Notes under the pieces: generated by a model
What the model saw: only the letters and a program-made list of their open reading frames with translations
Told to the model about the DNA's origin: nothing
Database searches by the model: none
Shown here: piece by piece, positions 1 through 58,100 of the stretch
Position numbering within the stretch: the stretch's first letter is position 1
Layout of the letters: every line of letters begins with the position of its first letter
DNA from: Perna viridis
Taxonomy: Eukaryota
Reading direction: 5' to 3'
DNA length: 64,000 bases
Assembly (NCBI GenBank): GCA_037379345.1
Contig: CM074511.1
Location: 56,488,862-56,552,861, forward strand
Made by a program: the position numbers and the translations under genes

Positions 1-161
1 GTGGAATTTCTGGAATTCGTTGTTTGTATTTAACCATGCAGTGTAATAAGTGAAATTTCTGGGATACTTTTATTATTTTACCACCAGATGAATATTTTTA
101 TTCAAGACCTGTGAAACTTTAAATCCTCTGGTTACAAATATTTTTTTTGTACTTTTTACAG

Positions 162-3100: not shown

Positions 3101-3791
3101 TGGAAGGAGAACAGTTGATTACCATGGTTACCAAGGCAGTCCAGGCCATTACCACTAGACTTCATAGTAAGTTATCTACATCGCATAATATTGCAGGCAT
3201 GCATTTTATATTTCTTGTTAGGTACACAATAGTGATACTAAACCAATGCCATAATATCAGCTATTTAGAATAGGTAAAACCTCCTTGATGATCTACTGAT
3301 CTCCTGGTAGTATGTTTACCTCAAGTGAAGGAGGTTTTTAGTAATACCAGAGACTTTAAAAATTGGAAGTCATTGTTGCATATAAGGGATACCATGTCAT
3401 TATATCCAGCTTAGCAATGTCAGTCTAGCACAGATAAAGGTGCATTTGATTGGTCAAAGGTTCTATTACTGAAATGCATCAAATATCTGCCGATGGGTAT
3501 TAAAGCCTCATTAATTAAGTGATTAAGTAGAAAAAGGCGCACTATTTTCTTGTTAAAGTGTTTGATTTGTACTGGTCAAGTTATCATTCTGACAGAAGTT
3601 TTGCATATCAAATCAATAATGCTATTGTAAGAAGGTAAGGTTAGAAAATAATTCAGATTATGATTCATTTAATTTTTGCAGATCTAGCTACATTTGAAGG
3701 AGCTGAGAGTAAAGTCAGTACCTTGGTAGCTGCTGCTAATAGCCATGATAATCTATGTAGAATGGATCCAGCTTGGCATCCATGGTTGTAG
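162..3791 (+). CDS. TRRAP: TRRAP (transformation/transcription domain-associated protein, PIKK pseudokinase), last 6 coding exons; gene is 5'-incomplete in this window
   Basis: GT-AG exons 162-278, 902-1117, 1535-1676, 2394-2590, 3061-3166, 3682-3791 splice in frame. They give ETSRRLLYFTVPRVVAISPQMRLVEDNP...RPVPFRLTPNI...FATC end LVAAANSHDNLCRMDPAWHPWL* (TAG 3789-3791), the diagnostic TRRAP/Tra1 C-terminus. Confidence 0.97.
519..820. mobile_element. Non-autonomous hairpin-type repeat element in a TRRAP intron (same family as 23216-23541), with an internal 54-bp tandem duplication
   Basis: Shares aataggataatt...cttggcatgagt...tcctatttatt and gtgtgaattatc...gggaacatttgataaa.cactgctatctatat with 23216-23541. 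The 54-bp direct repeat starts at 582 and 636. Confidence 0.6.
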
Positions 3792-36000: not shown

Positions 36001-39000
36001 GGTCGCTTATATAGACCAAGAAACCAGATTAGGAACCACATTAAACAACTGGCAATGAATATTTATAGATATCAGGGCCCTGCTTATGTATATGACCTAT
36101 ATAGTCTTTATATAGAAGTGCCCCTGTGCCTGAATTGGAAACTGGGTAATGTTCAATGCTAACCGATTATTTCATGTAAATTTCCTGTTCTCATACAAGC
36201 AAGAAACACACATAGAACACATGTGTATGATATTTAAAGAGGTACATTTTTTCTTTGTAGGCCGCTAGAACTATGGCAATAAACACAGCAAAGATCTGCA
36301 GCATAATGTGGAGTAGTGATATATAATTATACAAATCATATGCCAATATAAAGTACTGAAGTTACAAATGCAAGAAGTTGCTAACAATATTAGTGACTTA
36401 AAAATAAAAGATGCTAATTTTCTTAAATATCATTTTCAACAATAAAATCATAACAAATATATATTAATCACTATCACCAAAATAAAACAAACATGAAAAT
36501 ATCAACTTTCAGCTGTTTTTTGTTTTTTTTTCAGGTTGTTTTTTTGTTGTTGAAATCATCCCTACCTTCCATGGATCAAGTTTACTCATTTCCTTTTCTT
36601 CCTCTTGTTTTAATCTAGCCTGATTTTCGGGAGTTAATTCTCCTGAAAAAGAGGAATCTTTTTAGCTAACACTGAATCATTTAAATTTTGTGAAGAAATT
36701 GCTACATGTAGCCACAAAAAGAGCGATTTGAACAAAATTCATTGAAGTCCTATAACTTTAATAAAACTTGTTCAACAAAAATGGTTGTGTAATATAATGT
36801 CTTAACCAGCCTACAAAATTAAGCAAACTGTCGCAGATGGCATCACATGAGTTATCCAAACAAAGTATATGGCTGACAACATTGATACAGATGATTAATG
36901 AATCCTGTAGCAGAAGGGGACAAACATGCATCCCAGGCATCCTTACTAGACACACTTTATGTATCAAACAATTTCTTTCAATATACAAATGCCACACAAC
37001 TCTCTATTTTAGTCACAAGACTTGTGGTCTAAGTTGGTCAAATTTGGTTAAGAGCATGCATATAAAACAGCAAAACTTAGGTTCAATGATAATTGTATAA
37101 TTTATGGAGGAACATTTGATAAAACATGACAAATACAAAACTCTGCATTTATTTTGATATTTACCTGACAATTGCTGTAAAAATGATTTTGGTCTTAAAA
37201 GGATTGCTATTGCACAGCTACTAAAACTGTATATAGGTAAATAAAATTGCATTCTGTCTTAAAACAGGCTTACGCAGCACACACATCATTATTTTTTTTT
37301 TACTTATCAATACAATGTTACAAACCATCTGCTAATCTTTGGGTCCATTCTTGACATGCTTTGGCAAAAAATTCATTGTTGAAAGCTGTACAACTTAGCC
37401 TGAAAAAAAAAATTACCTCTGAATGTCATACTAAATTAGAAGTTGTTTTTTTTTTCATTTGATGGGTAGTTTATATTTCGTTTGCTATATTTTCAAACCA
37501 ACAAGAAAAACTGTGAGAAAAGTTCACTTTTCAAGTGTGGGGTATACAAATACTACTAGAACAGTGAGTAGACTGGCAATGAGATACCCTTGACATAAGA
37601 ATTTAAGACTAACCTCATTCCATCATCTTTTCCAATACATCTATCACATTCAGGGAGCAATTGTAAAAGTTTGTACTGGTAATTTGGTGGAAGTAAATCA
37701 AATGTATGTCTGTCAATCAATGTCTAAAATATAAATATATTGTATATTGTATGATTTACTGATGATGAAAAAAAAATAAACTATAAAAATTAAATGATGT
37801 ATACAAATAAGAAAGTTCATAAATTAGGTAAAAAATGAAAAAAAGTATAAAAGTTTGTAAGCCATGTGCTTCCAGGGTCTTCTAGGACAGAAATAAGTAA
37901 AAATAATTGGTTTCCATATAATCTATTAAGATGCATGTATTTTGTGCAAGCAAGTACATTCTGGCAGCATTCTCCTTAATCAATCTCTGTACAGGGTTCT
38001 CCTAGGGATTTTCAGACAGCACTGTATTCAGAGCATGTGACACGATGTTAATATGTCTCGTGTCTAAACATGCCACTTTGTATTTAATGTATTATATAAA
38101 GATTGATCAGTGTATTAAAAATGTACATTTGTACATTGCTGTTTCTCTTTACATGTTATTTGTAGGTAAATATTTTACCTTTTTTTTTTCTTTTGCAGTA
38201 ATTATAACTTTAAAACCATTTTTTATTTTTCCTTTTTAAATTAACAAAAAAATTTAAGATATTCTATCAAATTATAATAAGTAATTCTTCTTAAATATTT
38301 TCTTTAATTCATACACACCCAGTGTTCTTCAAATTTTTGCTGACAGCAGACCCTAAGAAATTACAATTTTTCATTTATGGGGCCTCAATGGCTCATTTGT
38401 ATGTGATATTCATTTGATTAACAGCAATCTCTATTAAACTCTTTTTCTAGTCTCAGTAACTTTCAATATATCTATATCTTTAGAATATTATCTAATCAGG
38501 TACATGTAAAAGACTACTCTTAATATTCATGTTTCCAAAAAATTTCAGGAAGAAGTGTGGAGTTGACCTTGTTATACCAGGAAAAAACATAAATCTTATT
38601 CTTGTTATTTAAAGTTGGCACACTAGTTGTTTTGTTTTGTTTTTTAATTTTATGTTTATATGTAGTTTATTCATGACAAAAACCCCATATCATGATTTAC
38701 AAAAAAAATTTTTTTCCCCCACACCTGTTGTACAATTTTTAAACCTGGGGGATTTTACGATCGATTACTTAACTAATTTTCCCTGCAAAAAAAATGTGCT
38801 CTAGATACACAACAACATGGCAATGTAAACAATAGACGGCCATTTCTTTTCATATTCTTTTCAATATGTTTTTTATAAGGTAAATCAGCTTCTTAATGTT
38901 GAAAACGTCATGTGATTGTGCGATTATTCAACTTTGCATTTATAAATAGCCACATGCTTTTGGTCTGGGTTGAGTGAATTTCTACCACAGTCAGTTTTGA

Positions 39001-42000
39001 TTGGTTCAGTATCAGATATTAATATCTGATTGACACCTTCATTACCATTTATTTGTGGCGAGGTGGGGTGACTGATAAAGAATCTTGTCGGTAATGTCAC
39101 AGGCTTCAGACACGCGGTGATCAACTGACCATTGCGTGTTTACTGCTAATTACCTTGTAGGATGCTGTAAATGACCTTTGGGGCATATGTTTCCTGTCTT
39201 CATTGATTTTTAATCCTCAAATTTAAGTTTATAGCACAACGCTGGTAGCAAGATAGCACAGTACTGATCTTGATAGCACCGTAAAGCACAGCGCTTTATG
39301 GGCCTGGGGAGAACACTGCTCTATGATGCATTTAGATTAAACAGCTCTGCTGTATACTTACCCTTAGATTGGTAGTAACCAGAATAGAATCAGGTGTCTC
39401 TAAATCAATACATCCCTCCTTTGTTTGGGCTATCTGTGCAGCATGACTTAATTTCTTTGTTCTCTTTCTCGGCTTTAAAAAAAATAAGTTTTTAATGAGG
39501 TAACCATGGCGGGAGCATGTACTTTTCAACTGGCCCTACTTATTTTATAGGGTTCAACCTTTCTCATCAAAAGAACGATAAATTACAATGAATAAGAGAA
39601 CACTGAGCAATACGAGAACAAAAACTCTATAGTTTTTGCATCAAGAATCTTCTTCACAACTGAAGTTTTATTCAGACTTTTAAACCAGAAGTCATCTTTT
39701 ACGATTTGTAAACAAAAATCAGCTGGAAGTTATCATAAAGTCCATTTCAGAACTTTTTATCTTTTACAATAATTACTGATCATGAGAGGTGATGTAGAAG
39801 CAAATCCTGGGCCCATAAAAACCCATGCCTCTCCTGTTCCAAAGCTGTGAGGGAAAATCAAAAAGGGCTACTGTGGGATTTCTGTGACGTCTGGGTTCAT
39901 TTAAAATGCAAATCATCATCACTTAAGCGATACAATGAACTAGATGGCACACCTGAACCATACTTTTGTGAGACCTGTGATGATCGCCTTCCATACTTCA
40001 CAAAACTGTTTTTTTCTTCTAGCCAAACACCATCCCTGTTAAATGACTGAGTACCAAGAGCCTAAACTCAATCAAATTACATCAGACATAGAAACATCAC
40101 ATGGAAGATCTTTTGAAATATCAGATGATGACTCAGTCTCAATTGGTATGGGCACACATGAGGACATTTATCAAGAGCTGTCCTATATGAGGAAAAAAAA
40201 CACCCAAAGCAATTACAATGTGCATACCTTAACATCAATAGCCTTAGAAATAAAACATGCCATACAAAAGAATGAGGCACTGTTGATGTGCTTAACCTTG
40301 TGGAAACAAAATTTGATCATTCTTTTGTAAACTGTCAATTCAGAGTAGACGACTACACCTTGTGGAGAGCTGACAAAATGCAAATGGAGGAGGAGTGGCT
40401 ATGTACCTAAGATCAGACATTGCTTGTGGCAGAAAGAAAAACCTTGTATTTGAGCAAATAGAGTCAATAGGTATAGAACTTATCTTAACACCAGAAAATG
40501 GTATAATTGTGGGGCATATAAGCCACTGTCAATGAATGACTAATAGTGTTTTCTCCAATGATTTTACAAAATACACAGATAAATTGACTTGTAACTTGGA
40601 GATTTGAACTGTAATATTCTAAATATAGAAAAGAGTTCTCCATTGAAAGACCTATGTGATATTTTTGATCTTACAAACCTTATTAAAGAACCTACATGTT
40701 TCTGTAAAGGGGAAAACCCTAAGTTTGGTAGATGTTATTTTTACAAATAGACCTAAATATTGTAGTAATACATGTAATTTTGGAACAGGCATTAGTGATG
40801 TCCACAATCTAATTGCCTTTCAATTCAAAGTAGAAATTCCACCTAAAGTGAAAACTACTAAATTTTATAGAAGTTTCAAAAATTTGGATAGTGAGCATTT
40901 TTTAAGAGGCTCAGAGCAGTCAGATGTTGGCAATTTATAATATACAAATGTAAATGAAGCATATGATGTTTTTAACAACAACTTCATGGATGAATATAAT
41001 AAGCGTGTACCATTGAAAAGGAGAAATACTGTAAGAGCTGAGCACCAGTTCCTTTTATGAACCGCAAATTGTGGCAAGCTGTATTTAAGAAAAGAATGCT
41101 TCATAATACATTGTATATTTAAAAGCAAAGGAGACTCTAAATCATAGGAAAATTATTGAGTACAAAGAAATTTGGTAAATAAGATCAAGCATGAATCTGT
41201 AAAAAAAGTATTTTATAGAATGATGTGCAGGTGGTCCCAAAAGTAAAGACTTTTGGCCCACCATAAAACTTTTTTTTGACTAATAATTTTGTATCAGATA
41301 CTGTAATTAGAGAAAATGATCAACTGTTAACAAATCAGAAATATATAAGCTGTGTATTTAATGATTTTTTAATCAATGTAGCCAAAGACATAAGAAATGG
41401 GACAATTCAAATAGATAACAACCACCCCAGCATTACTAACATCAAAGAAAATGCCACTTCAAACCTATTACAGAAGCATTCACACAAAAACAGTTCAACA
41501 AAACAAATGTAAAAAAGGCTACTGGTTTTGATGAAATTTCTCCTAAAATTCTGAAAATAGCTGTGCCAGTAGTAAAACGTCCAATTACCAACCTGATCAA
41601 CATGACTTATGAGACTTCAGTTTTCCAGACAAATTTAAAATAGTACAGGTAGTACCAATTCACAAGACAAACAGCACACTAGAAAAGAGAAACTACAGAC
41701 CAGTCAGTCTACTACCGACCATTACAAAACTTTATGAAAGAGCTACTGAATCTCAGACATGTGAATTTTTTTAAACCAGATTTAACATTTTCTTGTCAAC
41801 TTTTAGACATGGCTACAGTTGTCAAGATATTTTGATCAAAATTATTGAAGACTGGCATAAATCTTAGATAAAAATAAATTCACTGCTGCTATACTGACAG
41901 ATCTGTCAAAAGCGTTTGTCTACCGCATGATCTGCTCCTATTGAAAAAAAACAAACAAAAACACTATGGTTCGTCTGAAAACCCTACCTTTTTTAAATAT

Positions 42001-45000
42001 TTATCTTAAAAACAAGAAGCAGTGTGTTAAAATTGGTTCTATATGCAGTCCGTTTTTGGACATTTATAGAGGGGTTTCACAGGGGTCAATTTTGCGACCT
42101 GTCCTTTTTAATATTTTTAACAATAACTTTCACTTTATTTGGAAAAGTGACTTATACAACTATGCTGATGACAATACATTATCATATAGTAGAAATGATT
42201 TACAAGATATTGTAAACACTCTGGAACAGGAGAGTAGTATTTTAATCAAATGGTTCTCAGATAATCATATGAAAACCAATCCTGACACATTTCAGGCTAT
42301 TGCAATTGGCAGTAAGACTCAAAAAGAGAACATTACTTTTAACTTAGATGGAAATGAGGATGAGGATGAGGTAAATTTACTTGGAATAACATTTGATGTT
42401 AAAGTGAACTTTAATAGTCATATCTCTAATATATGTAAAAAGGCATCACAACAATTAAATGTATTAAAAAGAGTTGGTCATCATCTCAGTAAATTTGGTA
42501 AACTTACAATATATATATTCTTTTACACTAGCAAGTTTCAACAAATTGTCCATTAGTATGGCATTTTTGTAATGAGAGCTGTACAAAAAAGTTAGAAAAG
42601 ATTCAAGAAAGAGCTTTGCGCTTTATTTATAATGATGATAAAAGTACATATGAAGAGTTGTTAGTAAAGTCTAAGATGCCATCCTTAAAGAATTAGATGA
42701 TAAAGACAAGATATATATAAAATAATAAACAAGCTTACTCCTGTATACTTACATGATATGATAACTGTTAAAGAAAGTTCTTACTCTTTTAGGTATACAA
42801 ACTTGGTGAACATACCAAGAGCAAACACAACCAGGTATGGACTGCATTCTGTCAGTTATGGGGCAGCTAAACTATGGAACCAACTTCCACATGAATTAAG
42901 AGGGGACATGGGCCATGATCAATTTAAAAGTTTTATAAATAAGTGGGAGGAGAGGGATGCTCTTGCTCCTTTTGCCAATAGGTTGGCTAACACAACTGAC
43001 AGATGCAACATCATCTCCTTAAAATCTTTCATTTATTATTTTAATTTGTTGGCATGTTGTCTTTAATACTTTTAACTGCTCTTTTCTATTATATCAAAAT
43101 TTCAAACAAATGTAAAAGTGTTTGAATGAACTGTAAATAAGTACCATGGTGTCATAATTAAGAGTGGTTCTAATCTATATTCAAAACTGTTACATTACCG
43201 TATTATAGATCAAGTCATAATAGTTTCTCATTAAATAACAGCTCATGTTTGTATACATGTATGGTAAAAAATACTTTTGAAAGAAAGCAATTACCTGGTC
43301 TAAATTTAGTTTTTAGTAGGTTGATTATACAGGTATTTGAAAAATAATATTTTTGGCTATTGTACTCTCTGTTTTCGTGTCTTATCTGTTGAATAACATC
43401 CTGAGTATTCTTGAATTCACTACCAAGTCCACAAGATTGTTTTAGAAAACATAGAACTACCTACTCTCATACTTAAGCCTGGAATACCAGCCAGTATTTC
43501 TCTCATAGTCTGAGGTCTCTGAGGTTGTGTCACTTCAGGCTCAGACTCCTCTGAGTTCTGACTGCCATTCTGCTGAACAGGAAGTGCTACTTTCTCTTGT
43601 ACTGTAGCAACTTCTTTCTTTGGTTCTTCTTTCTTTTCTGTGTAAGAAGAAAAACCAAAAGTAAGTAGACTAAATCTAAAAGTTGATTTCAAAAAGATAT
43701 CATCAATTTATATGCAATGTACAAATACTGGCATGCACTAAAGCTTGAAATATCTGCCAAATACAAAACATTCTGGAAACCTTTACATAGTTAACTGTTT
43801 TTCCAGGTCTCCCTAGATTACAATTTTCATAAATATACAGGGAAATAGTAAAGAAAAATAGAAAAGGCCAAACATTCTGCCCTATGTTATCATCTACTAT
43901 AAAAGACTGAATATCCATGAATAGATCAAAACACATATATAAGAGAAACTACATGCAAAATATAAGAAATCAAACTGTCTAAAATACTAATACAATGCAT
44001 TAATAATATTGCAGCACATTCAATCTAAAAATTTAAAATGCTCTCAAAATCAATCTAAATAAAACCATGTAGGAAAAGATATCATAAAGTATTCTTAATG
44101 CATGTGAAGTGCTTCCTTGTTTACCTTCTTTGGGTGGAGGAGGGATAGGCTTAATTATAATTCTTGGATATTCTAATTTCTTCTTCATCTGTCGCAAGGA
44201 CTGCCTTATACTTCTACGCAGGCGTGTTGGCTGTGAATTAGTATTTTTTGTATTGTCCCCATTGATTTGAGACTTGGTAGTTTCTTCTTCATCTTCATTT
44301 TCTTCTTCATCTGTGGCAGGTATAGTTGTTATACCACTTGGAAGTTTAACATATACCACTGAAAAGCCAATGCATAGCTTCATTGATAAAACACACACAC
44401 ACACACACACACCATAGCTGTCTTTTCACTTACACTAAAATTCAGTATGATCAAAGTTTGAACTGCTATAGTAGAAAATATCAAAACCCCTTTTCACCTT
44501 CAAGCCAGCTACTAAATTTTAACCAAAGACAACTTCAACTAGATTTATAAATTTAAAAACGAAGGTCATGATTTACGGCCAAGACAGTAATATTACTATA
44601 AACTATAGGTAGAATGTTTTCCTTTCATGCGAGTGTGTGTGCTTAGCAATCATTCTTAAAATACTACACACAATATTTTTTTAATTCTGAATTCAATTAT
44701 TTGAGCAAAAGCAAACCAATTTCAAATACTATAAAAACTGTAAGCAATGCTCACTAATTTGATACCCCCACTCCCCATTTAATAACATGCACCTTTTGAC
44801 CTCCATAGTGATTTAGAACAAATCAAAAATTGAAGATGCACAAAGGGAACATGTAATAAAGATTCTTTGAAAGTTTCATTCAATACCATTCAGTGGTATG
44901 TGAGGAATAACAGATGAGAGATGGGTCCTTAATATTCAGAATGACAAAGTCCAGGTTTTGCTATGTGAAAATCCCCAAATTGATTCAGATCAAATTTGAA

Positions 45001-48000
45001 AATAGGAGGTGCACAATGGGAACATGTAATGAAGATTCTTTAAAGTTTCATTCAATTCCATTCAGAGGTATAGGAGGAGAAAGGATAAGAGATGGGTCCC
45101 CCCAGTGTAACAGAAGGAAGGAGACCCCTATCACTATATACCTCCAAGTTTGCAAGAATAATAAAACGTAACATATTTCACAAACAAGTTACAATGGCAG
45201 TTTTAAGCAGCTCCACAGAGGAGCTTTTAATTTACAAGTGCTAAAAAACATTTGTCATTTGTAAAGGTAAATTCTGTGAACAGCCATCCCATTCAATCAA
45301 GAACTAATAGTTGGCCATATGTACATGTCCTTCTATACATTCTCAGTATTACATTCTTACCAAATTTAGTTAAAATCAGCCAATTGTTAAAAGCAGTTGA
45401 ACAATATTCTACCAAAAATTATGTAAATTTCCTCCTAGAATTCTAGATTTTTGTGTGCTTGTATGGAAACTGATATCATATCACTTGTCACAACTTACAA
45501 TTCTCTTTCTTTTGATCAGGAAAGTTACTATCTGTAATCTGAACATCTTCATCCTCTTCCTTCACTTCCACTACCTCAGAACCTTCAGGCAAATCACTCT
45601 GAAAACATACAATTGTCAGTCATAACTTGAGCATGGAAAGGTCAATATCTGTGACAACATTCATTCAGCATCTGCCAGAGCTTACCATAACTACACAGAC
45701 TTTTTGTACCGAGCTAGACTTCTTACAATTAGCCTTCTGAACCACGATTATGTTACTTCAAGATTGAAGTCATTACTACAGAAATTTTATGGTCCTTGTC
45801 ATGAACTTGTGGATTATTATGGTGTATCCATCTGCATCATGAAAACTGATTTGTTCAACATGTCATTCATGTAGTTTTTCTTCCCTCTTTCGTCTACCCT
45901 GGACTTGACTATAAACAACTCGGTATATGTTTCAAACAAAGCAGAGGACGCTTACCCTACAAGTGCACATGGTCCATGCTCCCAGTTTAATAATGGAGTC
46001 CAAGTTACTTTTGTTACTTTGTACATATTATTTTGGTTATTACATATTCTCTGTTGTGTATGTATGCTTTCTATGTCTGGTCTTTGTCCCTGAATTACAT
46101 TCTTTTGATTTCCACTAAAATCTTGGTTCCCTTGATTACTCACCTAGTAAGTTAATTAAATGGTTGAATAGGCTAATTTGTAAGGGATATAGTTATGATG
46201 TTGTTGTCCAATCGTTAAAAATAGCATTTTTTTTGTATTACCACTGACTCGCTCATCGGGGCTTTACAAAGAAACTAAACACACTATATTTAAAAGCAGT
46301 TTCCAGCATGACATGGGTTGTGTCCTTAATGTATGACTTATGATATACCATGATTCTAACCCCACATGGGAAAATTTAGAAATGATATTACATACATTGA
46401 GGGCATAACTTTTTGTCAGTTTAAACTAGTCAGGTGCTGGTAGTCCTCTATTTGTAAATATTTTTTCCACTGTGGCCAGAATTAAAATGGGAAGGGTTGA
46501 GATCATGCCAAAGTCCTTTTTTGTGTGAGTCCCAAGTCAGAAATTTCAGGCCCCTGTGTGTATTGTTTCGTTGTCAATTTCAGTTTACTTTTATGTTACT
46601 GGAGTATATGGGGCAACTATTGTGCTACACCTGTGTATAATGTTTTTTTTTTTTTGAGACCAGCTGCTGAATGCCCTGTGGTGTATTGTTTTCCTCGTCA
46701 TTTACTGAAGACCCTTGGGTGGCCTTGAGCTGACATTTTTCATCCCAGTTGGGTTGTCTCTTTGACATATTTACCATAATCATTCTTGTTATATTCAATG
46801 CTTCAAGAATAGTAGAACTTTTTTGTTCAGTTTATTATCAATATACCACTAAGGTAAGCTGTTAAAATGCACCCTGTTGTGTTAACCTTAAATAGACATT
46901 TGATCCAGTAACGATCAGAGTTTCTTTGGTCATAAAAGTCTACACTGAAAATAACAATTGAAATTTACATGTGTAATGACACTGACACAATTGCAAAATG
47001 TATAGTTCTGTAGATCACAGTATTATATAGACATGGGGAAAACTTAGCAACTTATGCACTTTTATATTAGAGAAGAAAGTGGAAATGGGGAATGTGTCAA
47101 AGACCCCTTCCAAACTGTGAATAAAACAGCCAAGGGCAGTCCATTGGCCTAACCTAATATATTTACCTTTAATCCATAAACATCTGACCTTCCAAACACT
47201 TTGTAAAATATACTGTCTTTTCCTCTTGAGTTGGTATCAAGACAGGAATTCAAACAGGCTAATGGTACTGAGCCACTGAAATGTCATCTTCCAAGTTAAT
47301 ATTCATTTGTATACTGAATTGTAGCAATAAAACTTGTTAGTCTGAAATATCTGTTTTCATTCATATGAAAGTAAAATATAAATTTATTTTAATACAAAAA
47401 TATCAATCATATAATTTACTGATAACACATCAGCAGCCCCACATCAACAGCATTTGAATCAAATACAAAAAGAGATCTAGATCCATCAATTGCATACAAG
47501 TAGGACTCAAAACCAAAATATTAAAATACATGTACAAAACCAAACCCAGTACTCCCATGGGCAACACAACAAATGCATGTAAATAGAAGCACTGATACTT
47601 TCTTGAATGTATACATGTAACTAAGCTTAAAAGATGTTTCAAAGTTTTATTTTACCTTTAATGAGTTATACAAGAGTTCAATCTTAGGAACATTTTTATT
47701 CTCTTTCTAATTGTAAACTTGTCAAATTGTTTTTTTTATTATGCAGCTGCTTTAACCATACACAAAATGCTGTATCAAATTTTATCTTTTTTATGTTACC
47801 TAGATACACTGAAGTTGACTGAAAATTTATGAATTTGGTGATGATTGTGTCAAAATAGAATACTAGTGTATGCAGTTGACTTTTACTTCCAGACCTCATT
47901 ATGTTATGACATTGCCTTAACAGATGCCAACCATGGTTAAAATAATGTTATGTTCCTACATTGCTGCAATATTTACAACAGTACATGCTACATACGTGTA

Positions 48001-51000
48001 TAGATTACAACTTCAGGAAAAACTAGTGTTATGTTATTCTTCTACCTTCTGCAATGGATACATTATAAACATGCACCACAATTGCTCTAAATATATATTA
48101 CCTTATGTCTTTCAAACTGTCATCTTTGATCTTTTGCATAATAGCCTTACAGTTCATTGGGGTTTGAGGTTTGCTTTCTAACACCTGTAATGCAGATCAA
48201 GCCAAATCTTGTTAATCTCAAATCCTACATGTATATATCAATGATATCATCTGCAAAGCATTAATGATACAAAATAACATGTAGCTTAAGAAATTAAACA
48301 AAGTAATTTATAACGAATTTCGCTCTACTGTATATCATCTGAAATTTTTTTCATTTGTATGTCAGACTAATTGTTCAATAAAAGCTTTGCGGAATGCAGC
48401 ATATGACTTCAGTGAGTTGGGGAAAGTGTGGACACAATATTAGTTTTTTACACACTTCAGCATAGGTCTTACGATTCATTATGGACACAACAACACTATA
48501 TTGCACAAAATTTGAAATTCAAATAAAACTTTTCAAATCAGACCAAAAATAAAAAAGTCCTTTTTTTGGGGTGTGGTCTCTTTGACCCTTAATAACTTAA
48601 AAACTAGAAGAGATATCTGAAATCTGATTGAAAAATGCAGACAAAATTTTTTTTACAGAATCCAATAAAAAAAATTTGAAATCGGATCATAAATAAAGTT
48701 CTTTTTCTTTTTTGGTGTTGCCCCTTTGACCCCTTATAATTCGAAAACAGTCCAAAACACATCAAATCTGCTGATACATAAAATAAATAGACCGGATTTA
48801 AATAAGGAGCACAACAGAAGAGGAATAATCAAATCGGATGAAAAACAAGCATTCTACATGGGTTTTACTAATACACCTATTTTGACCCTTTTTGGCCCCT
48901 TTTTCTAAAAAGGTAAGGGCCACTAACTCTAAAATAAATAGGAATCTTCTTTTGGTGGTAAGTAAAATCATATCAAAATTTCATAACAATTGATCAACTA
49001 CAACTAAAGTTAATGCACGGAAACAAAGTGTCCACAAATAACAACAGTGCCGATGACTGTAACATTGTATAAAATGACCACCTGGACATGAGATAAAATA
49101 AGATACAAGTAGTAGATTATGTCAGACAACCAATATTTATAATACAATACATTTACTTCAATTATAATTAGATGTTTTACCAAATTTCTTATTTTTCATT
49201 TAATCTTAATTACAGAGACTGTCTGGAGAAATTTTCAAGTAGGTACATAGGTAAAATAAAAGTTGCAGATGGGCTTATATTAATGCATGTCCAAACCCAA
49301 TTTTTTTCTCTACAACTGTTTATTACACACATGATGTTTCAGTGTAAACAAAACTGAAAAGAAGTTTAAACCAACCTAAAGTTCTGTAAGATTGCACAAT
49401 AACATTTGTAGTAAAAGGTCCATCTATCAATTTAGATAAATCATACTATTATAGAATAAAAATTAGTGTATCATCATCGAAGGATGATTGATGTTTGAGA
49501 GTTTTATTAGGATGACCCTTAAATACGTACTGCTAGAATGCCTTAATTACCTATTTAAAATATTAATAATTATCTAAATCTCCTGTAAATGTGTGAAATC
49601 ATCATCAGTAAAGCCATTTGTTGGCTCGAGTCCTGTCCATCAGTCAACAAATAGAATTTGTCCAATGTTACATTTAAAAATAGAATAAATTGCCTGTCAA
49701 CAGAAAGATAAATAGTCTGGTCAGATAAGAGATAAGATGACTTCAAAAAGAAGGATAAAAACAAAATCTTTATATTTTTACGACATAAATGAATCCATCT
49801 TGATATCTTGAAATCAATCAGCAAATTGAAGCTCCCCTAACTACCCATAATTCTATGTTCCCAATGATCAATGCACCACTAGTAAGATTAGTCTGCCAAA
49901 AATTGGATCAGACCTGTCCATTGTCAGTATCTACAGGACCTATTAGTATTATCTGATGGACATGACAATGATTTTGTGCAGCACTGAGAAACATGTTGAA
50001 TGGACAACACTAGGCATCTTAATGGGAGTCTCCACAACAATTTCAGGAAACATGCGTTTCTGTTTTTTTTTCATTAAGTTTCATAAAGTCTGTAGAAAAA
50101 TATAAAATGGTTCCTTCCAATTTTTTTTTAAGATCTTTTTTAATAATTGATGCTTTAAATTTAAAATTATGATATCCAGACTATCAGATTACATGTGACT
50201 TAGGACATGTACATTGTTCTTTTTACTTCCAAAAAAATTAAACAAATATTTTTTAATTCAATTTCTTCTTTTATTTAAGTAACACATTTATACGCTTTTT
50301 ATTTGCTTAAACATGCAATAATTTTTATTCTGAATATATTGTTAACATGTATTTATTTAATGAGTTCTTCACTAATTAAATTTGACGAACTTTTGTTAGT
50401 ATGATATCAAAATTTCTAACTATTCATTTTTTTAATTACACTTTCTTAATTATACAATCAATGCTCTGATTAAATCAAGCAAATAATAATAGGCCCAGTG
50501 CCAGTATTAAAATCATTATTTTAACTGTCAATAATACCATTAAACACAATATCTTTACATTGTATTTTTAATGAAAATGTACATGTGCCTACATAAATAA
50601 TAAACATTGTAATACATATTAATATTGTACTTTAGTAATGCAAGATGACAAAGTGGTTGTTATACTACAGAAAAATACAGTTACTGAAAACTCATAGTGG
50701 TAATTCTCTAATGTAATTAAGGAATGTGAGATGTCATCTTTAACATTGTTGAATCTTACACGGCCAAAAGTAGATTTTTCTGGTTTTGTCTGTAGAATGG
50801 GGTTGAAATAAAAATTTATAATTAATTTGATTAAAAACAGAAACAGAATTGCTTTAGGTTACATGTAATAGCCCTTCTAAGTTCTAGTCTGATTAAGATT
50901 GATTAATACTATATGCACATCATGTTAAATTTAGTCAATGGAAAGTCTAAAAAAAATATTAACCTCTTTTAAATAATGATGGTAACCTATCTTGAGATAG

Positions 51001-54000
51001 AGAATTCAGGGATCTCCATGCATCAAAATGAACACATGGCTCAATCTCTGGTTGGACAAATTTTTATTGTGGCGTGTGTCCTTTCGTGCAGAAAATAACT
51101 TGCCAAAAAAGTATATGGCTGAATATGACATTTAATAGCACAAGCTACAACATAGAAAACAACAATATTTTTTTCTGCCTGTATTGTCTATTTCAATTAT
51201 ATATAACAAGGTAAAGTACTCCCTTTCCTAGGCTTGATCATTGGTCCACAGCTCTAGAGAAATTAAAACCACTGGTACATGTAGGTGTGGTCATTTGTTG
51301 ATACCATTAAACCATGTACATTTAACAAGTTCTTTATAATTTAACCACAAGAACTTAGACAGTAAAACGTTGTTATTGTCCAAATTGGGTCTTTAAACAA
51401 TTCTTTAGAACTTTTTAGAGTCTGTCCATCGCATTTTCATAAAAGTCAGGCAAATTGAAATGCTTTCCTGTGTCAGATAATTGCCGAGATCGTTATGATA
51501 TTTTTGTATAAATTAAGATCGTTTTCCTCCCTCTCTGATCACATCAATCTTTATCAAATTGAATTGAACTCTTGATACTTTCTATATTTTATTAAATGAA
51601 AAGTTTTCAAATTTTGTTCATTAAAAATAAACAGTAGAAATCATCCAGTTTTTTTTAATCTTACTGATTTTGCCAATGATAATAATCATAAATTCGACAG
51701 ATCCAAGATGTGTTTACACATGCATTTCACTCCCTGACACATTAAACCCCCGTAAATTACCAATAAAAACATTGAAATTACTGTTAGAATAAACACACAT
51801 GCCAATCATATAGATTTATGACAGGTATAGGTGATTAATAAACAAGAGTAATTGGTAAATACGGTGCTGATTTACAAAGGAATACAGTGCTGCTTTGCAA
51901 AGCATGACGCAAAAATGAATACATGACGTACGCCATATGAACATGTGGCGCTCGTTTTGAATTCATGGCACAAGGAAAGTAACACATGGTGCAGCACCAT
52001 GCAAAAAGAGGCCGTGGAGAACCCTGAAAATTGGAATTACTTAGTTACCTAAAGTATTGATTTTATTTCTTGAATTTGTTTTCAAATAAAATACTTGTTA
52101 CATTAAAGTATTGATGTGTTTGGTTTTTTTTTATTCAATCAATTAACACATAACAATTGACAAGAAAGACAACTGTAACTTTGAGAAAATCACTGGTTAG
52201 TTCATAAACAAATTTTAACTAATGTAGAGTAAAGCAAATATTTATATGCTCCCTAAATGTAAATGGTAGCTGAAAGACATGAAAATTCATGTTAGGAGCC
52301 CAATAATTATTCATAAATATTTCAATATTTATGCTGTGATCTTGCAAAATTTGAAAAAAGACACAATGACAGATAGGAGTCCATAAGACACAAATTTTGG
52401 TACCAGTTGTTAATATGATTATACTGTTTTACAATGTGGTACATTATAATCACTGTCTTTATATTAAAAAAAAAGAAACTCCACGTATTTTAACTTATTT
52501 TTTCTAAAAGGAAAATCTATGAATACATATTTTAATCTATTTCTAAGATGATGCGGTAGACCAATGAAATAGTTTGTCCAAGAATTTTTATAGCCTACTG
52601 TAATAATCCTTAGTTTGACCCAACTTGCCAAAATGAAATCTTCCAATTTCATTTTGATGTGTCTTATAGAACCATTTAACTGCCATTTTTTTTAAATTTT
52701 ACCACATTTTCATGTTTATTGGAGTACACTGTATCTGGATAAAAAGACTCTTCTGGCACATGACTCATACCACACGATTTCATGACATCAGAACAGAAAA
52801 GTTGGCCAATAATGTTACTGGGCCATGGAACTCTGAGACTAATTGGGTGTACATGTATGTGTCAAAGAAGTTCCTCCATAACACAAGTTCCAAAAGAAGA
52901 AATATTACAGAATAAAATTTCTCTGGAAATTTGATTGTAATATACAAATGTATGTTCCTTGACAAAATAATCTATATGAAACAATCCGTTAATACTTCTG
53001 TTATAAGGAACAAATATACAAATATACATGTACATTTGTATGTCCACATATGAACTGTTCATTTGATACAATTGTATATGTACCAGTGTTTTATGTTTTA
53101 CCTATTGTTCTTTTAAGCATTTATAATGATCGTCTGTTCCCCAGGTTTAATTTGAATGGAATGCTACAGCAAAATAAACAAAACTGAAATTAGACACTTC
53201 ATTTGAAACAACAAATCAAAGTCTGCCTGCTGATGAACTAATCAATTTGGTAGGTTCTAAAATGTGTAACCCATACCCATACCAACTTTTCCCCATAACC
53301 AAATAATAATTTGCTAAAATACATGTATTCATTCTTACGGTATGTTAAGAACTGAAAATTACATGTATATGAGATTTGAAAAAGTCAGTTTCCATTCATT
53401 TCTACTCAAGAAAATGATGTATATTCTTCTAATGTTTCTTGTTTGATTGGTTTTCTGAAATCAAAAGGTCTAAAATGTGAAACCAGAAGATACCATACCA
53501 AACTAATTATTGACTATTTCTCACTTTCCTATTCAATTTTTCTAAAATCATTAAAATGTTAAAACTTTACCGAAGACTTTGGATACAGATTTGATATTAT
53601 TTTAAAAAAGAAGTGATTGAGTATGAATTTGGTACCATACCTGGCTTCAATCCCTGTATCAGCAAAGAACTGATATGATCTTATCCAGAATGAAAAAAGA
53701 AAGTCTCATAAACAGTCTGATGCGATTTTCACCATTAATGAAAATTTTAATAATGTAATGATGTTAAAATGATGCATTGAAACTGTACAGATAACAAAAA
53801 TGCCAGACTTTGATTTTGGGTATGAGAATTTCTTAACACATTTTAGACCTTTTGAAAACAGAAAATCAAATAAAATCAATCATTCCCCAATCATTTTAAA
53901 AATCATTAATTCTAGCCTAACCAATATGCCATTTTGTGAAAGTGTACAAACTTTCAGCTGGTAATATCAAGTAATAATAAAGAAATTGGCAAAATTGTAT

Positions 54001-54334
54001 TTTGGTACTAAGTCAGTTTTGTATGGGTTACACTTTTTAGACCATACCGATCAATTCAGATTTATGAAACTGTCAGGGTCAATAAACCTCAACTGACACA
54101 CATAACATTGTATCCAAACTTCCCCATTTAAATTCGTTTTGATTGTGGAAATGAAATGAGTTTTTAAGACTAACAAAAGGCAAATACAGGAGAACAATTC
54201 GAATTTTTTGGGGAATCCATATTTTTTCCATTTGTTGGTAAACATCAAATTATGCTCACAACTTTCGCTGCTTCCATCCATGTTCTACTTTTCTTCTTCT
54301 TTGATAACTTATCTCGGTTCAGGTCACTCTGCAT
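33082..54334 (-). CDS. ASXL: Additional sex combs-like (Polycomb/PR-DUB subunit Asx/ASXL), complete, 12 exons, 1017 aa
   Basis: Exons (minus strand) 54334-54260, 48184-48102, 47275-47167, 45598-45499, 44358-44125, 43637-43465, 39472-39362, 37723-37614, 37399-37326, 36642-36566, 35383-35352, 34957-33082 total 3054 nt in frame. Domains: HARE-HTH ([17 protein letters not shown]...[19 protein letters not shown]), DEUBAD ([28 protein letters not shown]...[26 protein letters not shown]...[13 protein letters not shown]), RTLAQIKA motif, C-terminal PHD ([32 protein letters not shown]). Confidence 0.96.
35081..35159 (-). repeat. Intronic 79-bp duplicate of ASXL coding sequence 34208-34286
   Basis: 69/79 identical, no indels, same orientation. 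Confidence 0.9.
35754..36249. repeat. Tandem duplication with period ~277 bp
   Basis: aggaacca.attaaacaactggcaatg...tatgacctatatagtc...gaggtacattt starts at 35754 and at 36031. Confidence 0.85.
37992..39318. mobile_element. Possible old hAT-like non-autonomous element
   Basis: Ends cagggttctcc and ggagaacactg are near-complementary. The TSD is not clean. Confidence 0.4.
39600..42985 (+). mobile_element. Degenerate CR1/L2-clade LINE ORF2 (2A-like motif, PHD, APE endonuclease, RT) in ASXL intron 6, antisense
   Basis: GDVEANPGP (39788-39814). PHD remnants [24 protein letters not shown] motifs [51 protein letters not shown] motifs [46 protein letters not shown]-terminal [19 protein letters not shown]. 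Many stops and frameshifts. Confidence 0.9.
44826..45100. repeat. Two ~177-bp satellite-like units (HINE remnant)
   Basis: gcacaa.gggaacatgtaat.aagattctt..aaagtttcattcaat.ccattcag...gagatgggtcc occurs twice. Confidence 0.65.
45673..46141 (+). mobile_element. Second, heavily 5'-truncated copy of the Penelope-like element (RT C-terminus plus 3' UTR) in ASXL intron 3
   Basis: Collinear with about 26146-26619 (tgccagagctt...agactttttgtaccg...gcagaggacgcttaccctac...cttggttcccttgattactc). Both copies end at the same 3' sequence. Confidence 0.9.
51007..52026. mobile_element. Possible TIR non-autonomous element (CAGGG...CCCTG)
   Basis: cagggatctccatg versus the reverse complement of the right end, cagggttctccacg (12/14). 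The TSD is uncertain. Confidence 0.45.
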
Positions 54335-54673
54335 TATGTATTTTTGTCATAATCAATTTAAATATTGTTGTAAAATCCTGATTATAAAGGGTACTCAGAT
54401 CCTCGACAAAAAAGAAAATAGTTTACGCCATTTTGGCAAAGTCACGTGATCCTACAGAAAAGCGAATCAAAATTTGCGTTACAAAATTATCCTTAGAAAC
54501 TGTGAAGGCGTCAAAATGGTGGATTGAATCAACATTATCAAAGTCTCTTCATGATTTTTTTTAACACAATGTAATGTTTAACTAGAAAGAAAAGATTTAT
54601 TTTGTCCATAGTTCAGATTTATAGGAAAGACAGTGATGTAAATTTCCTGGTCGGTCATCAAAATTAATGTCAG
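54335..54673. promoter_or_regulatory. Putative bidirectional promoter between ASXL and the CCDC178-like gene
   Basis: Lies between the divergent starts. YY1-type cgccattttg at 54426, palindromic E-box gtcacgtgat at 54441, aaaatggtgg near 54513, and a CAG|GTAAAT donor at 54673 that could end a non-coding first exon on +. Confidence 0.55.
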
Positions 54674-55131
54674 GTAAATATGCTTACAGAATAGAGTACA
54701 TTCATAGAATCATATATTTACTTTCCAAGTTTCGCCAGAAAATCAGGATCAGGTGTCAAGATTTACTTTGAGACTCCAAATACTTACAGACTACATTGAA
54801 CACAAAAAAAAATGTTATTTAGATTTATTTTTTAGTTCAACTTGTCTTAAAAGTACACATAATGAAAAAAGAACAAGATAACTGGCATACAAGACAAGTG
54901 ATTAAATTACAGTCGACAGGAGAGACAAAGCAGTGTCAAGCAAGACACAATATACTTACTTGCATAAACAACATATAATTTTTTGCCATTATTTGTTAGC
55001 ACTGGTAACAGAAATTAACTTTTATAACCAAAAAAGAGTAATAAACAGCTACTGTTCTGTATGAAAAACAATGCATAAATCAACTTGAACCTTTGGCAGT
55101 AATTAATATTGAATGATTTTTTTTTCAGGAC

Positions 55132-58100
55132 ATGTCGCAGACAAAAGTTGTTAAAGTTGAAGAGGTAGAGAAAAGATTAAACAGTGGCATTCTTGGACAA
55201 AGGTCAACAAGTCAAGATAAATTTAATGCTGCTGTTCGGGAGGCTGAAGGTGAGTATTTGCAATAAAAAGGGAAAATGGAATAAGTTAAGTAACTGCAAA
55301 TATCAGATTCCTATAATTCTTAAATTACAGCTTGATATTTATGTACTTTTTTTGGTGAAATTTGTTTTGACATGAAATATTAACATATCCAGCTCAAAAA
55401 TAGTGAAAACATGATTGATTTAACTACATAAATTAAGTACTGTAAAAATATTAATTTTCGCTATTTTTGCGGTTGCCTCAAAAACACGAAAATTAGTACC
55501 AACATTAATATATTCATATTACCAAGTCGTTTGACTGTTCTAATCATGGTTTCCACGATTTTGAATAGAAATTTTGTTTTGTGTAAGGGTCGTATCATTC
55601 AGTACAATCAAGTATGAATTTATACTCAATCTATTATAAAAACGTATGAGGTAAAGGTATATGGGTTATAATTTCTAAATTCATGATCTTGTTTACATAT
55701 TTGTATCAATGGCAAAGAGTATCTGTAACATCAAAGAATAGAAATAAATATTGTGCAAACATTTTATTCACAAAAAGAACAAGATGTTGGTGTTAGCACA
55801 CATTAGGGTAATCACCCATAAAAGATTACCATTAAATACACATGCTTAGAACTGACATTAAAAAGTTAACCCGTAAACATGCAATTGAAGTGTCAAAAGT
55901 TAATCCCTACAATTAGCCACGGCTTGGACAATTAAGTGAGTTCTTTTGAGTTTTAATTAACAATACACTATAAGATTAAAATGGCCAGAAGAAACTATGT
56001 GGACTTGTCAATTTGTTGATGTCGTAATAACAGCCATCATTAATACTATTGAAATATTAATGGTAAAATAACTGATCAAAAGAGAGATCACACACTGCGG
56101 AGACTATTCAAAAACTTAATTTCTTCAACCTTGAGAACTGTGAAAATTAATACCTGTGAACATGGTCACTTTTCAGAAACCGCGAAAAATAGCCGCTGTG
56201 AAAATTAGTACGTTTACAGTATACTTCCTTCAGAAATTTTTTTCACTTGTGAAGTTAAAGCTGAAAATTTAACTGTGTAGACTAAGCAATAAACATTATA
56301 AATTTTAAGGTGATAACTACCAATCAAGCGTGGATGATTTGAAAGAAGATGAAAATACTGAAATCGAAGGTAAATGTCTGAACACAATGCTGTTAGATAA
56401 CTAATCATTGAAGGTTAGATTTATAAATTTTTAAATAAAATGTGCAAATTTTTGACATGGTGTAAAGTTACACTACACTCGGAGACATTTGTTTCTCTAA
56501 CACTCAAGTTTGAGTTTTAAATCCTTGTTAGTAGACAAAACACCTTGTCAGTCAGATTTTTTCATAGTGAAATGTGAGTGTTACACCTACCCATCTGGGA
56601 TATTGTATATTCCGGTTGTTAATTGTGTATGGAGTATCACTGACCTGGGTGTGAAATTCACCCAGCACAGTGAAGTTTATCTCATTGATCTCTACTGACA
56701 ATATGGGCATTAGTACCCAAACTCCAAGGTCACTGACCTAAAAAATTCATTGGGGACCCCTGAAAATCACAACAAGGGAGTCCAGGGGACTTGTTTTAAC
56801 CATCATTGCTGTTTTCTTGCATTTCATAGCTTGTATGAATAACCACAACAAGCTTCTTATTTTTCTCTCAAAATATGCCATCCTAATCCTAACTTCTTCA
56901 CCTGTGTGCGGTGGAGTGTAAAATATATAACAGCAGGAGCCCAACATTTCCTCAGACCCATCATCATTTAATTATCAAATAAGAGATCTATTTAAAAAAT
57001 GAAAACAATTGTCACTAATCCTTTAATCCACTTGATGAACTGTTTCCAGATCTCAAACATCAATACACAAGCTTGGCAAATTAAAACATTATTTTTATAA
57101 ACGATCGAACTTGACACCATTGTTTTAGTGAAATACTTGATTTGTATACGAACAGGAAATGTAAACATTTTAGCTGACTCTGTGAATGGATCCAAAACAT
57201 CACTGTATTTTAATCAGTAAATGGCTTGCGAACACAGGGAAATACAAAAAAAACACTTTTAAAAAGATTAATGATGAAAGGAAACCCATTTCAGGGAATT
57301 TACCAGAATCCTTTCATTTCAATATGGTCTTCTACAGGTGATTTTTCCTCACTTCCCAGGGCCCGTTTTATACGGAAACTTTTTTCGTCGATCTCCTTTG
57401 CCAGGAAGGGGGTGTGCAGTATACTAAGAATGTGCACAATACACAGAAGAATACAGAACAAAACTTTTTCAAGTTGAAATAAAAACAAGTCACAGATATA
57501 TGCAATTCCTTTTTAATTTGTTTGCTTTATAAATTTTGCTTTTTTATTAATTGTAGATAAAGTATATCCCCTTCCCGAAAACTGGCCTAGGATACCTCAA
57601 ATATTTCGCAGAAAAAGTTGTGAACTAACCAAATCAAGTTCACCATGTGTAAAAAAAGCTGTATCTCACCTAGAACTGATCCAAAACATTATAGAAGAAT
57701 GGTTCAGAGAAAAGGAGGAAGAAATGAAAAGTCGGCCTCCTTCAATAAGACCTGGTATGTAGTGTTTGTTGAGTGTGTTTTTTTTTCTCATGATTGAATG
57801 AAGTGTTTACTGCACATTTTTCTATTTATTGTCATGCCCTTTTAGTGTGGAATAGAAATCATTGTGCATTTTGCCTGTTTAAAACACATTATACCATTGT
57901 TAATATACATATTTAAAGACAATTGACCACTGAAATCATTTTAACTCTTATTATCAGAAAGACATTATCAGAAAGGTTCCTTCTTCTTTACACAAGAATA
58001 TTACTATTAATTCAAGTCAAGTTTTAATTTCGAATTTGTACATAAAACTATCAGTAATGCTTAACAGTGATGATTTGGTAATTGTTCATCTTCTGTAAAC

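What the first reader, a model, noticed from the sequence alone, without database searches (positions are those of the whole stretch)
54260..55249. ASXL and CCDC178 head-to-head on a tiny shared promoter: candidate ancient bilaterian microsynteny
Seen: the ATGs are about 800 bp apart on opposite strands (54334 and 55132), with YY1-like and palindromic TCACGTGA motifs between them and a probable non-coding CCDC178 first-exon donor at 54673. Established (from memory): human CCDC178 and ASXL3 are adjacent and divergently transcribed on 18q12.1, far more widely spaced. Inference: the pairing predates the protostome-deuterostome split and may have been held by a bidirectional promoter coupling a Polycomb deubiquitinase subunit to a testis/cilia coiled-coil gene. 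It would also mark ASXL3 as the paralogue that kept the ancestral neighbour.
Basis: partly seen in the sequence, partly recalled or inferred. Interest (0 to 1): 0.7.

Follow-up and report, generated by a model that had tools for sequence, protein, structure and literature searches.

The report
Ancient shared ASXL–CCDC178 promoter
In this mussel a chromatin gene (ASXL) and a sperm/cilia gene (CCDC178) start back to back under 100 bases apart; the pairing is ancient and already listed in published tables, and a shared promoter, not joint regulation, likely kept it together.

Summary
A mytilid bivalve has single-copy ASXL (minus strand, ATG 54334) and CCDC178 (plus strand, ATG 55132). Stranded RNA reads confirm the non-coding CCDC178 exon (donor 54673, 70 reads, 4 of 4 runs) and put the two 5' ends about 55-80 nt apart, around a TCACGTGA palindrome, with a YY1-like word at each start. 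Orthology is supported. The linkage is ancient but already tabulated. Touceda-Suárez 2020 lists ASXL3=CCDC178 as an ancient chordate pair (ASXL1/2 unlinked, human gap 137,895 bp). Robert 2022 lists both genes in one block in Lingula, Capitella, amphioxus and Acanthaster. Amphioxus CAGE (Marlétaz 2018) flags both promoters bidirectional and YY1-positive, 234 bp apart. Added here: 11 of 11 testable bivalves share a scaffold; two of three other animals' ASXL loci carry TCACGTGA at the same offset; one, probably not a mollusc, shares a 13-mer at the CCDC178 start that occurs only 6 times in this genome. Co-regulation is not supported: the CCDC178/ASXL read ratio ranges 0.8-12.7. Verdict: a real ancestral bidirectional promoter of a known kind, better read as a shared promoter than as the enhancer-based block it was filed under. 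The scan's notes held nothing on this pair.

The parts
33082..54440 (-). ASXL gene: HARE-HTH, ASXH/DEUBAD and PHD exons; 13 exon matches collinear with Mytilus edulis ASXL (1029 aa)
   Evidence: Pfam ASXH and PHD_3 over cut-off; HARE-HTH below cut-off on single exons; tblastn; single copy in G000
54260..54440 (-). ASXL exon 1: 5' UTR plus 25 codons from ATG 54334; spliced to 48184; 5' end approximate
54426..54435 (-). YY1-like word at the ASXL transcript start; also opens a 2-codon uORF
   Evidence: YY1 consensus recalled; GCCAT at offsets 80-95 in L007, L008, L011
54442..54449 (.). Palindromic E-box TCACGTGA, 110 nt upstream of the ASXL ATG
   Evidence: same word at 99 (L007) and 109 (L011) nt, absent at that offset in L008
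54444..54509 (.). Shared core promoter: the gap between the two 5' ends (about 55-80 nt)
   Evidence: zero read depth 54452-54487 in 4 of 4 runs
54507..54519 (+). 13-mer GGCGTCAAAATGG spanning the CCDC178 start (54510), holding the second YY1-like word
   Evidence: identical in L011 at offset 198 vs 175 here; 5 of 2000 shuffles, 3 of 1248 window controls; 6 copies in 723 Mb, control 3
54510..54673 (+). Non-coding first exon of CCDC178, 6 upstream ATGs (3.5 expected)
54674..55128 (+). CCDC178 intron 1 (455 nt, GT-AG); 54770-54949 is 68% alike to one other place on C1
55129..62973 (+). CCDC178 coding exons 1-11 (ATG 55132; 499 codons open); nine more exons lie beyond the window, ending about 11 kb past it
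   Evidence: 78% identical to Mytilus CCDC178-like; single copy in G000

Best explanation
ASXL and CCDC178 are transcribed in opposite directions from one core promoter under 100 bases long, an arrangement also recorded in amphioxus and so likely inherited from the bilaterian ancestor. Shown: the two stranded transcripts, the gap, orthology, adjacency in many bilaterians, and YY1-flagged bidirectional CAGE promoters 234 bp apart in amphioxus. Inferred mechanism: ASXL's broadly active promoter (a palindromic E-box for a USF/MiT-type bHLH-ZIP factor, and a YY1-type word at each start) keeps one open chromatin patch from which polymerase fires both ways. CCDC178 uses the same patch but is raised separately in ciliated or sperm-making cells. 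A break between the genes would have to fall in a very short stretch and would cut shared elements, so the pair persisted without its products needing to be co-ordinated. After the vertebrate genome duplications only the ASXL3 copy kept CCDC178, and the gap grew to about 138 kb in human.
For: Mussel RNA. Amphioxus CAGE rows: ASXL + strand TSS 3,150,943, ubiquitous, YY1 yes, bidirectional yes; CCDC178 orthogroup gene - strand TSS 3,150,709, YY1 yes, bidirectional yes (gene ids). Adjacent rows in Lingula (g7489/g7490), amphioxus, Capitella and Acanthaster. 11 of 11 bivalves with both proteins share a record length, three of them scaffolds of 357-678 kb; 5 of 6 with ids seen have consecutive ids. 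E-box at the same offset in 2 of 3 other animal ASXL loci and a shared rare 13-mer in one. Uncoupled output. Human pair and unlinked ASXL1/2.
Against: No reporter, CAGE, ATAC or binding data in the mussel; 5' ends come from RNA-seq of 4 runs in 2 studies, tissues unknown. Orientation and gap were seen only in the mussel and amphioxus; the other species give order only, and the human strands are recalled. Touceda-Suárez found the pair in only 2 of 5 non-vertebrates; limpet, centipede and urchin were likely the misses (order inferred). Pinctada ids are 574 apart. In L007 and L011 the gene on the other strand was not identified (contigs end 328 and 552 nt upstream of the ATG). 25% of amphioxus neighbours share bidirectional promoters, so slow decay without selection is possible. 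The human pair survives 138 kb apart, so a shared promoter is not what holds it there.
Confidence: 0.7

Rival explanations
1. Genomic regulatory block: enhancers for ASXL lie inside CCDC178 introns, so CCDC178 is a bystander that cannot be separated. This is how Touceda-Suárez 2020 filed the pair.
For: Listed as GRB pair 2521. The human pair persists at 137,895 bp, where a shared core promoter cannot act.
Against: That paper defined a GRB only as a GO-defined developmental regulator next to another gene, without using orientation or enhancer data, and calls the split debatable. A search of its supplement for ASXL and CCDC178 showed no row from its duplicated-element table S4. Amphioxus ASXL is classed ubiquitous, with a 234-bp bidirectional promoter. 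It may still explain vertebrates secondarily.
Confidence: 0.12
2. Neutral leftover: the genes became neighbours once, and with so small a gap and slowly rearranging genomes no break has happened to separate them; the motifs are ordinary housekeeping-promoter words.
For: Bidirectional promoters are common (25% of amphioxus neighbours). Uncoupled expression. The third gene of the old block, a 26-29-p cathepsin, was lost from the mussel's side: the nearest of 12 I29 matches is over 5 Mb away.
Against: Persistence in bivalves, brachiopod, annelid, echinoderm, amphioxus and human; a 13-mer found 6 times in 723 Mb recurs on the same strand at a similar offset in another animal. This rival differs from the best explanation only in whether selection acts on the shared elements.
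Confidence: 0.13
3. Functional coupling: the promoter co-ordinates a Polycomb deubiquitinase subunit with a sperm/cilia protein because both are needed together.
For: Shared promoter; both transcripts are present in 4 of 4 runs; weak positive trend in amphioxus (rho 0.49).
Against: Junction-read ratio CCDC178/ASXL is 12.7, 0.8, 2.7 and 1.0; different CAGE classes in amphioxus; mouse CCDC178 is testis-predominant and acts in the manchette with IFT88/KIF3A. n is small (4 and 6).
Confidence: 0.05

Closest known systems
ASXL3=CCDC178, GRB_ID 105 / pair 2521 in Touceda-Suárez et al. 2020 (PMC7530604, Suppl. Tables S1, S3)
   Same: The same gene pair, called ancestral to chordates; ASXL3 linked, ASXL1 and ASXL2 unlinked; human gap 137,895 bp.
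   Different: Filed as a putative enhancer-based block; no orientation, promoter or protostome RNA evidence given in the rows seen.
Microsyntenic block 1091 in Robert et al. 2022 (PMC8851819, Suppl. file 4)
   Same: ASXL and CCDC178 in adjacent rows in Lingula, amphioxus, Capitella (mislabelled Capsaspora) and Acanthaster.
   Different: The block includes a 26-29-p cathepsin, which the mussel lacks nearby; Exaiptasia and Acropora have CCDC178 in the block without ASXL. ASXL is not in the main text.
Ancestral bidirectional promoters of amphioxus (Marlétaz et al. 2018, PMC6292497) and 5'-5' conserved pairs such as HSPE1-HSPD1 (Irimia et al. 2012, PMC3514665)
   Same: Head-to-head genes with short gap and YY1 words; this pair's amphioxus promoters are flagged bidirectional; such promoters were mostly pulled apart in vertebrates.
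   Different: HSPE1-HSPD1-type pairs are co-expressed and still under 1 kb apart in human; here output is uncoupled, the human gap is 138 kb, and the mussel gap (55-80 nt) is tighter than amphioxus (234 bp).

Membership tests
ASXL/Asx family | ASXH (DEUBAD) and C-terminal PHD domains, N-terminal HARE-HTH | tested here: met
   ASXH and PHD_3 over cut-off; HARE-HTH weak on two single exons; collinear with M. edulis ASXL that carries all three
CCDC178 orthologues | Full-length similarity to named CCDC178 and a tree that follows the species tree; single copy | tested here: met
   78% to Mytilus, E 2e-49 to axolotl, 5e-22 to mustelid CCDC178; quick tree of 26 rows groups it with Mytilus (100), bivalves (96), spiralians (100) (no non-CCDC178 outgroup); single copy. 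Human protein itself not fetched.
Bidirectional promoter (head-to-head, starts within 1 kb) | Opposite-strand transcripts whose 5' ends lie within 1 kb | tested here: met
   55-80 nt in mussel RNA-seq; 234 bp in amphioxus CAGE
Bidirectional promoter (head-to-head, starts within 1 kb) | Shared cis-elements needed for both directions | not testable with these tools
   Needs dual reporter; only motif conservation seen
Conserved ancestral microsyntenic pair (Irimia 2012) | Unrelated genes linked with 4 or fewer genes between them in 4 or more major lineages | tested here: met
   Mollusc, brachiopod, annelid, echinoderm, cephalochordate, vertebrate. Whether it is on Irimia's own list is unknown: supplements unreadable.
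Co-regulated 5'-5' pair (HSPE1-HSPD1 type) | Correlated expression above matched neighbours | tested here: inconclusive
   Ratio varies 15-fold over 4 runs; amphioxus rho 0.49, p 0.33, n=6; leans against, no matched control
Genomic regulatory block | Enhancers of the regulator inside the bystander's introns | not testable with these tools
   No chromatin-contact or enhancer data; no S4 row seen
RFX X-box ciliary promoter | X-box near the start above chance | tested here: inconclusive
   One-mismatch match at 54487-54500 to a recalled consensus, but such matches occur 2.5 per kb in the window

The most novel reading that the evidence does not exclude
The core promoter's letters themselves, the E-box about 100-110 nt upstream of the ASXL ATG and the 13-mer at the opposite start, are orthologous cis-elements kept across animal phyla for over 500 million years. 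The pair would then be a sub-100-bp test case of cross-phylum regulatory sequence conservation, and of how a housekeeping chromatin gene's promoter lends a start site to a cilia/sperm gene that vertebrates later moved 138 kb away.
Probability: 0.35. Interest if true: 0.6.

Novelty: already known. Interest (0 to 1): 0.32.

Why it matters
The headline (old linkage, ASXL3 kept the neighbour) is already in supplementary tables, and ancestral bidirectional promoters are a described class, so a specialist would not be surprised. What this adds is modest but usable. The pair was filed as an enhancer-based block, while mussel RNA and amphioxus CAGE point to a shared core promoter. The mussel version is small enough (under 100 bp, three candidate elements) for a decisive dual-reporter test. 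Touceda-Suárez notes that orthologous cis-elements are almost never seen across phyla, so the shared E-box and 13-mer would be worth having if wider sampling confirms them.

Tried and rejected
X-box at 54487-54500: chance level (159 one-mismatch hits in 64 kb). Upstream ATG excess in the CCDC178 leader: 6 vs 3.5 expected, not persuasive. A CpG rise around 54250-54450 (7-8 per 300 bp, about the window's 95th percentile) is weak. KIF3 as a further ancestral neighbour (from the human ASXL1/2 loci): not seen among ORFs of 55 aa or more in the 19 kb after CCDC178, read by eye; the next gene matches DUF4523. 26-29-p cathepsin beside the pair: none of 12 I29 matches within 5 Mb (counts are lower bounds). 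Multiple alignment of four upstream regions was uninformative and did not bring the motifs into register. The spaced pattern E-box...CAAAATGG has 26 genome matches, many in a repeat family (control 8), so it is not specific. 6 of 9 metagenome hits (L005, L006, L009, L010, L012, L013) were not animal ASXL and were dropped; L008 was called ASXL from its exon-1 peptide alone, with no tblastn hit at E 0.01. Longest shared words with L007 and L008 (9 nt) are chance. No ASXL was returned for Lingula, Tubulanus, Ptychodera, amphioxus, Antedon, coral or gastropods (120 of 148 hits listed, many arthropod), so those could not be tested by accession. Irimia 2012 supplements could not be read; the list of 372 ancestral bidirectional promoters was not found in the 4 Marlétaz files held. 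Scan notes: nothing on this pair. No listed RNA holder among indexed runs; the 2026 raw-read runs were used instead.
Full report
Setting. The window is G000:C1:56,488,862-56,552,861 of a 723-Mb, 46-contig genome. Its proteins are closest to Mytilus, so it is a mytilid bivalve.

The two genes. On the minus strand, an ATG at 54334 opens a 25-codon exon ending at a GT donor. tblastn with M. edulis ASXL gives 13 collinear exon matches from 54337 to 33085. Pfam finds ASXH and PHD_3 over cut-off and HARE-HTH weakly on two single exons. On the plus strand, 11 GT-AG exons from 55132 to 62973 give 499 open codons, 78% identical to Mytilus CCDC178-like; nine more exons lie in the next 11 kb. Each gene had one match in G000. 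A profile of 25 homologues found 106 proteins at E up to 1e-30. Of 20 looked up, 15 clusters carried a species name; 14 of these had a member named CCDC178 or CCDC178-like (Lingula, Tubulanus, Ptychodera, Saccoglossus, amphioxus, Antedon, coral, Hydra, Sycon, lamprey, axolotl, mustelids and so on), and the rotifer one was hypothetical. A quick IQ-TREE of 26 rows places the window protein with Mytilus (100), bivalves (96) and spiralians (100), with vertebrates as one group. It has no outside root and several long branches. Orthology is supported; the human protein itself was not fetched.

Promoter anatomy. Four stranded RNA runs (2 studies, about a fifth to a quarter of each read) were laid on the region. 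10 of 10 predicted coding introns in the window appear as joints. ASXL exon 1 joins 48184 in 4, 8, 4 and 10 reads on the other strand. At 18-bp resolution, ASXL depth fades over 54416-54451, CCDC178 depth rises at 54506-54523 (6 molecules end at 54510 in one run), and 54452-54487 is empty in all four. The 5' ends are therefore about 55-80 nt apart. TCACGTGA (54442-54449) sits at the ASXL edge of the gap, and each transcript begins with a CAAAATGG word, YY1-like by recalled consensus.

Is the pairing old? In bivalves, 11 of 11 species for which both proteins were returned share a record length, including scaffolds of 357, 416 and 678 kb. Ids are consecutive in 5 of 6 species where they were seen: Potamilus, Dreissena, Mya (GenBank ids; its RefSeq ids are not consecutive), Mactra and Pecten. 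Pinctada's are 574 apart, which is inconclusive. Robert et al. 2022 (PMC8851819; passages and supplement rows seen, file cut when stored) put ASXL and CCDC178 in adjacent rows of block 1091 in 4 of 4 bilaterians with a CCDC178 row: Lingula (g7489, g7490), amphioxus, Capitella and Acanthaster. In 2 of 2 cnidarians with a CCDC178 row there is no ASXL in the block. That fits a bilaterian origin. ASXL is not named in that paper's main text. Touceda-Suárez et al. 2020 (PMC7530604; main text parts 1-4 of 5, supplement rows and parts 1 and 3 seen) list 'ASXL3=CCDC178' as an ancient pair with ASXL1 and ASXL2 unlinked, found in 2 of 5 non-vertebrates, with a human gap of 137,895 bp. The human strand orientation is recalled, not checked.

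Is the shared promoter old? Marlétaz et al. 2018 (PMC6292497; passages and supplement rows seen) give amphioxus CAGE promoters. ASXL (BL09354) is on + with TSS 3,150,943, ubiquitous, YY1 yes, bidirectional yes. The CCDC178 orthogroup gene (BL19080) is on - with TSS 3,150,709, late-embryo, TATA and YY1 yes, bidirectional yes; they are 234 bp apart. The paper reports that 25% of amphioxus neighbours share bidirectional promoters, and that most of 372 ancestral ones were lost in vertebrates. One metagenome scan for ASXL exon 1 gave 9 hits, 3 of them animal ASXL loci. TCACGTGA lies 99 and 109 nt upstream of the ATG in L007 and L011 (110 in the mussel; 11-18 of 5000 shuffles each) and is absent there in L008. 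L011 also shares the 13-mer that spans the mussel CCDC178 start, on the same strand at offset 198 vs 175, followed by a GT donor. 5 of 2000 shuffles and 3 of 1248 window controls reach 13, and the word occurs 6 times in 723 Mb (control 3). L011 is probably not a mollusc: its third exon reads LNAML, where 21 of 23 stored ASXL proteins with this motif, among them the named bivalves and the chiton, read LNSCL. The gene opposite ASXL in L007 and L011 could not be identified. The proper null, other promoters of those animals, was not available.

Is output coupled? Junction reads give CCDC178/ASXL ratios of 12.7, 0.8, 2.7 and 1.0. Amphioxus CAGE values over six samples give rho 0.49, p 0.33. Mouse CCDC178 is testis-predominant and needed for the manchette (PMC11327391 and PMC12123824, passages). 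Coupling is not supported, on small numbers.

Mechanism. The most likely reading is one small open-chromatin region kept by ASXL's broadly active promoter, firing both ways, with CCDC178 boosted separately in ciliated or sperm cells. A rearrangement would have to hit a very short stretch and would split shared elements. The factors named (USF/MiT-type, YY1) are inferred from recalled consensus words; none was tested. The enhancer-block label in Touceda-Suárez follows from a GO definition, not from enhancer data; it may apply secondarily in vertebrates.

Literature check. Full-text searches for CCDC178 with ASXL3 (6 papers, listing only, none on synteny by title or abstract), TCACGTGA with bidirectional promoter and YY1 (0), ASXL with microsynteny terms (27, 15 listed) and ASXL3-DT (one irrelevant hit) found no main-text treatment of this pair's promoter. 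Two ASXL reviews (passages) list human neighbours without CCDC178. Irimia 2012 was seen as passages only; PMC5838959 as passages.

Verdict. A real feature, correctly read, of a known kind and already catalogued as a pair. The increment is protostome RNA evidence, the case for shared promoter over enhancer block, and a candidate cross-phylum promoter footprint. Interest 0.32.

Noticed in passing
window 123-3273 (+): Last exons of a PI3K-related kinase gene, recognised from recall as TRRAP (weak Pfam PI3_PI4_kinase); it faces the 3' end of ASXL about 30 kb away.
   Followed up: partly
L002:6013-6372 (+): DUF4523 exon (E 6e-14; recalled as TEX56/C6orf201-like, another testis gene) about 5 kb downstream of the CCDC178 stop.
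   Followed up: partly
window 19906-21051 (-): Two exon-like coiled-coil stretches of an unidentified gene; no Pfam match.
   Followed up: partly
window 25062-26623 and 39793-43066 (+): Broken reverse-transcriptase retroelement copies; the second lies in an ASXL intron on the opposite strand.
   Followed up: no
window 54335-54440 (-) and 54510-54673 (+): Both leaders open with a 2-3 codon uORF inside the YY1-like word, and each has an out-of-frame uORF overlapping the main ATG.
   Followed up: partly
L007 and L011, 110-140 nt upstream of the ASXL ATG: These two share a further ETS-like stretch after the E-box that the mussel lacks (ETS consensus recalled).
   Followed up: no
L008 upstream of ASXL exon 1: AT-rich, microsatellite-rich locus without the E-box at -100 or the 13-mer; may be a lineage where the pair broke.
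   Followed up: no
PMC8851819 supplement file 4: Capitella teleta rows (CAPTE ids) are labelled Capsaspora owczarzaki; block 1091 shows an older CCDC178 - 26-29-p cathepsin linkage in cnidarians, Lingula, amphioxus, Capitella and Acanthaster.
   Followed up: partly
P0092/P0345, P0079: CCDC178 homologues are named in the sponge Sycon and in Hydra, so the gene is older than its link to ASXL appears to be.
   Followed up: partly
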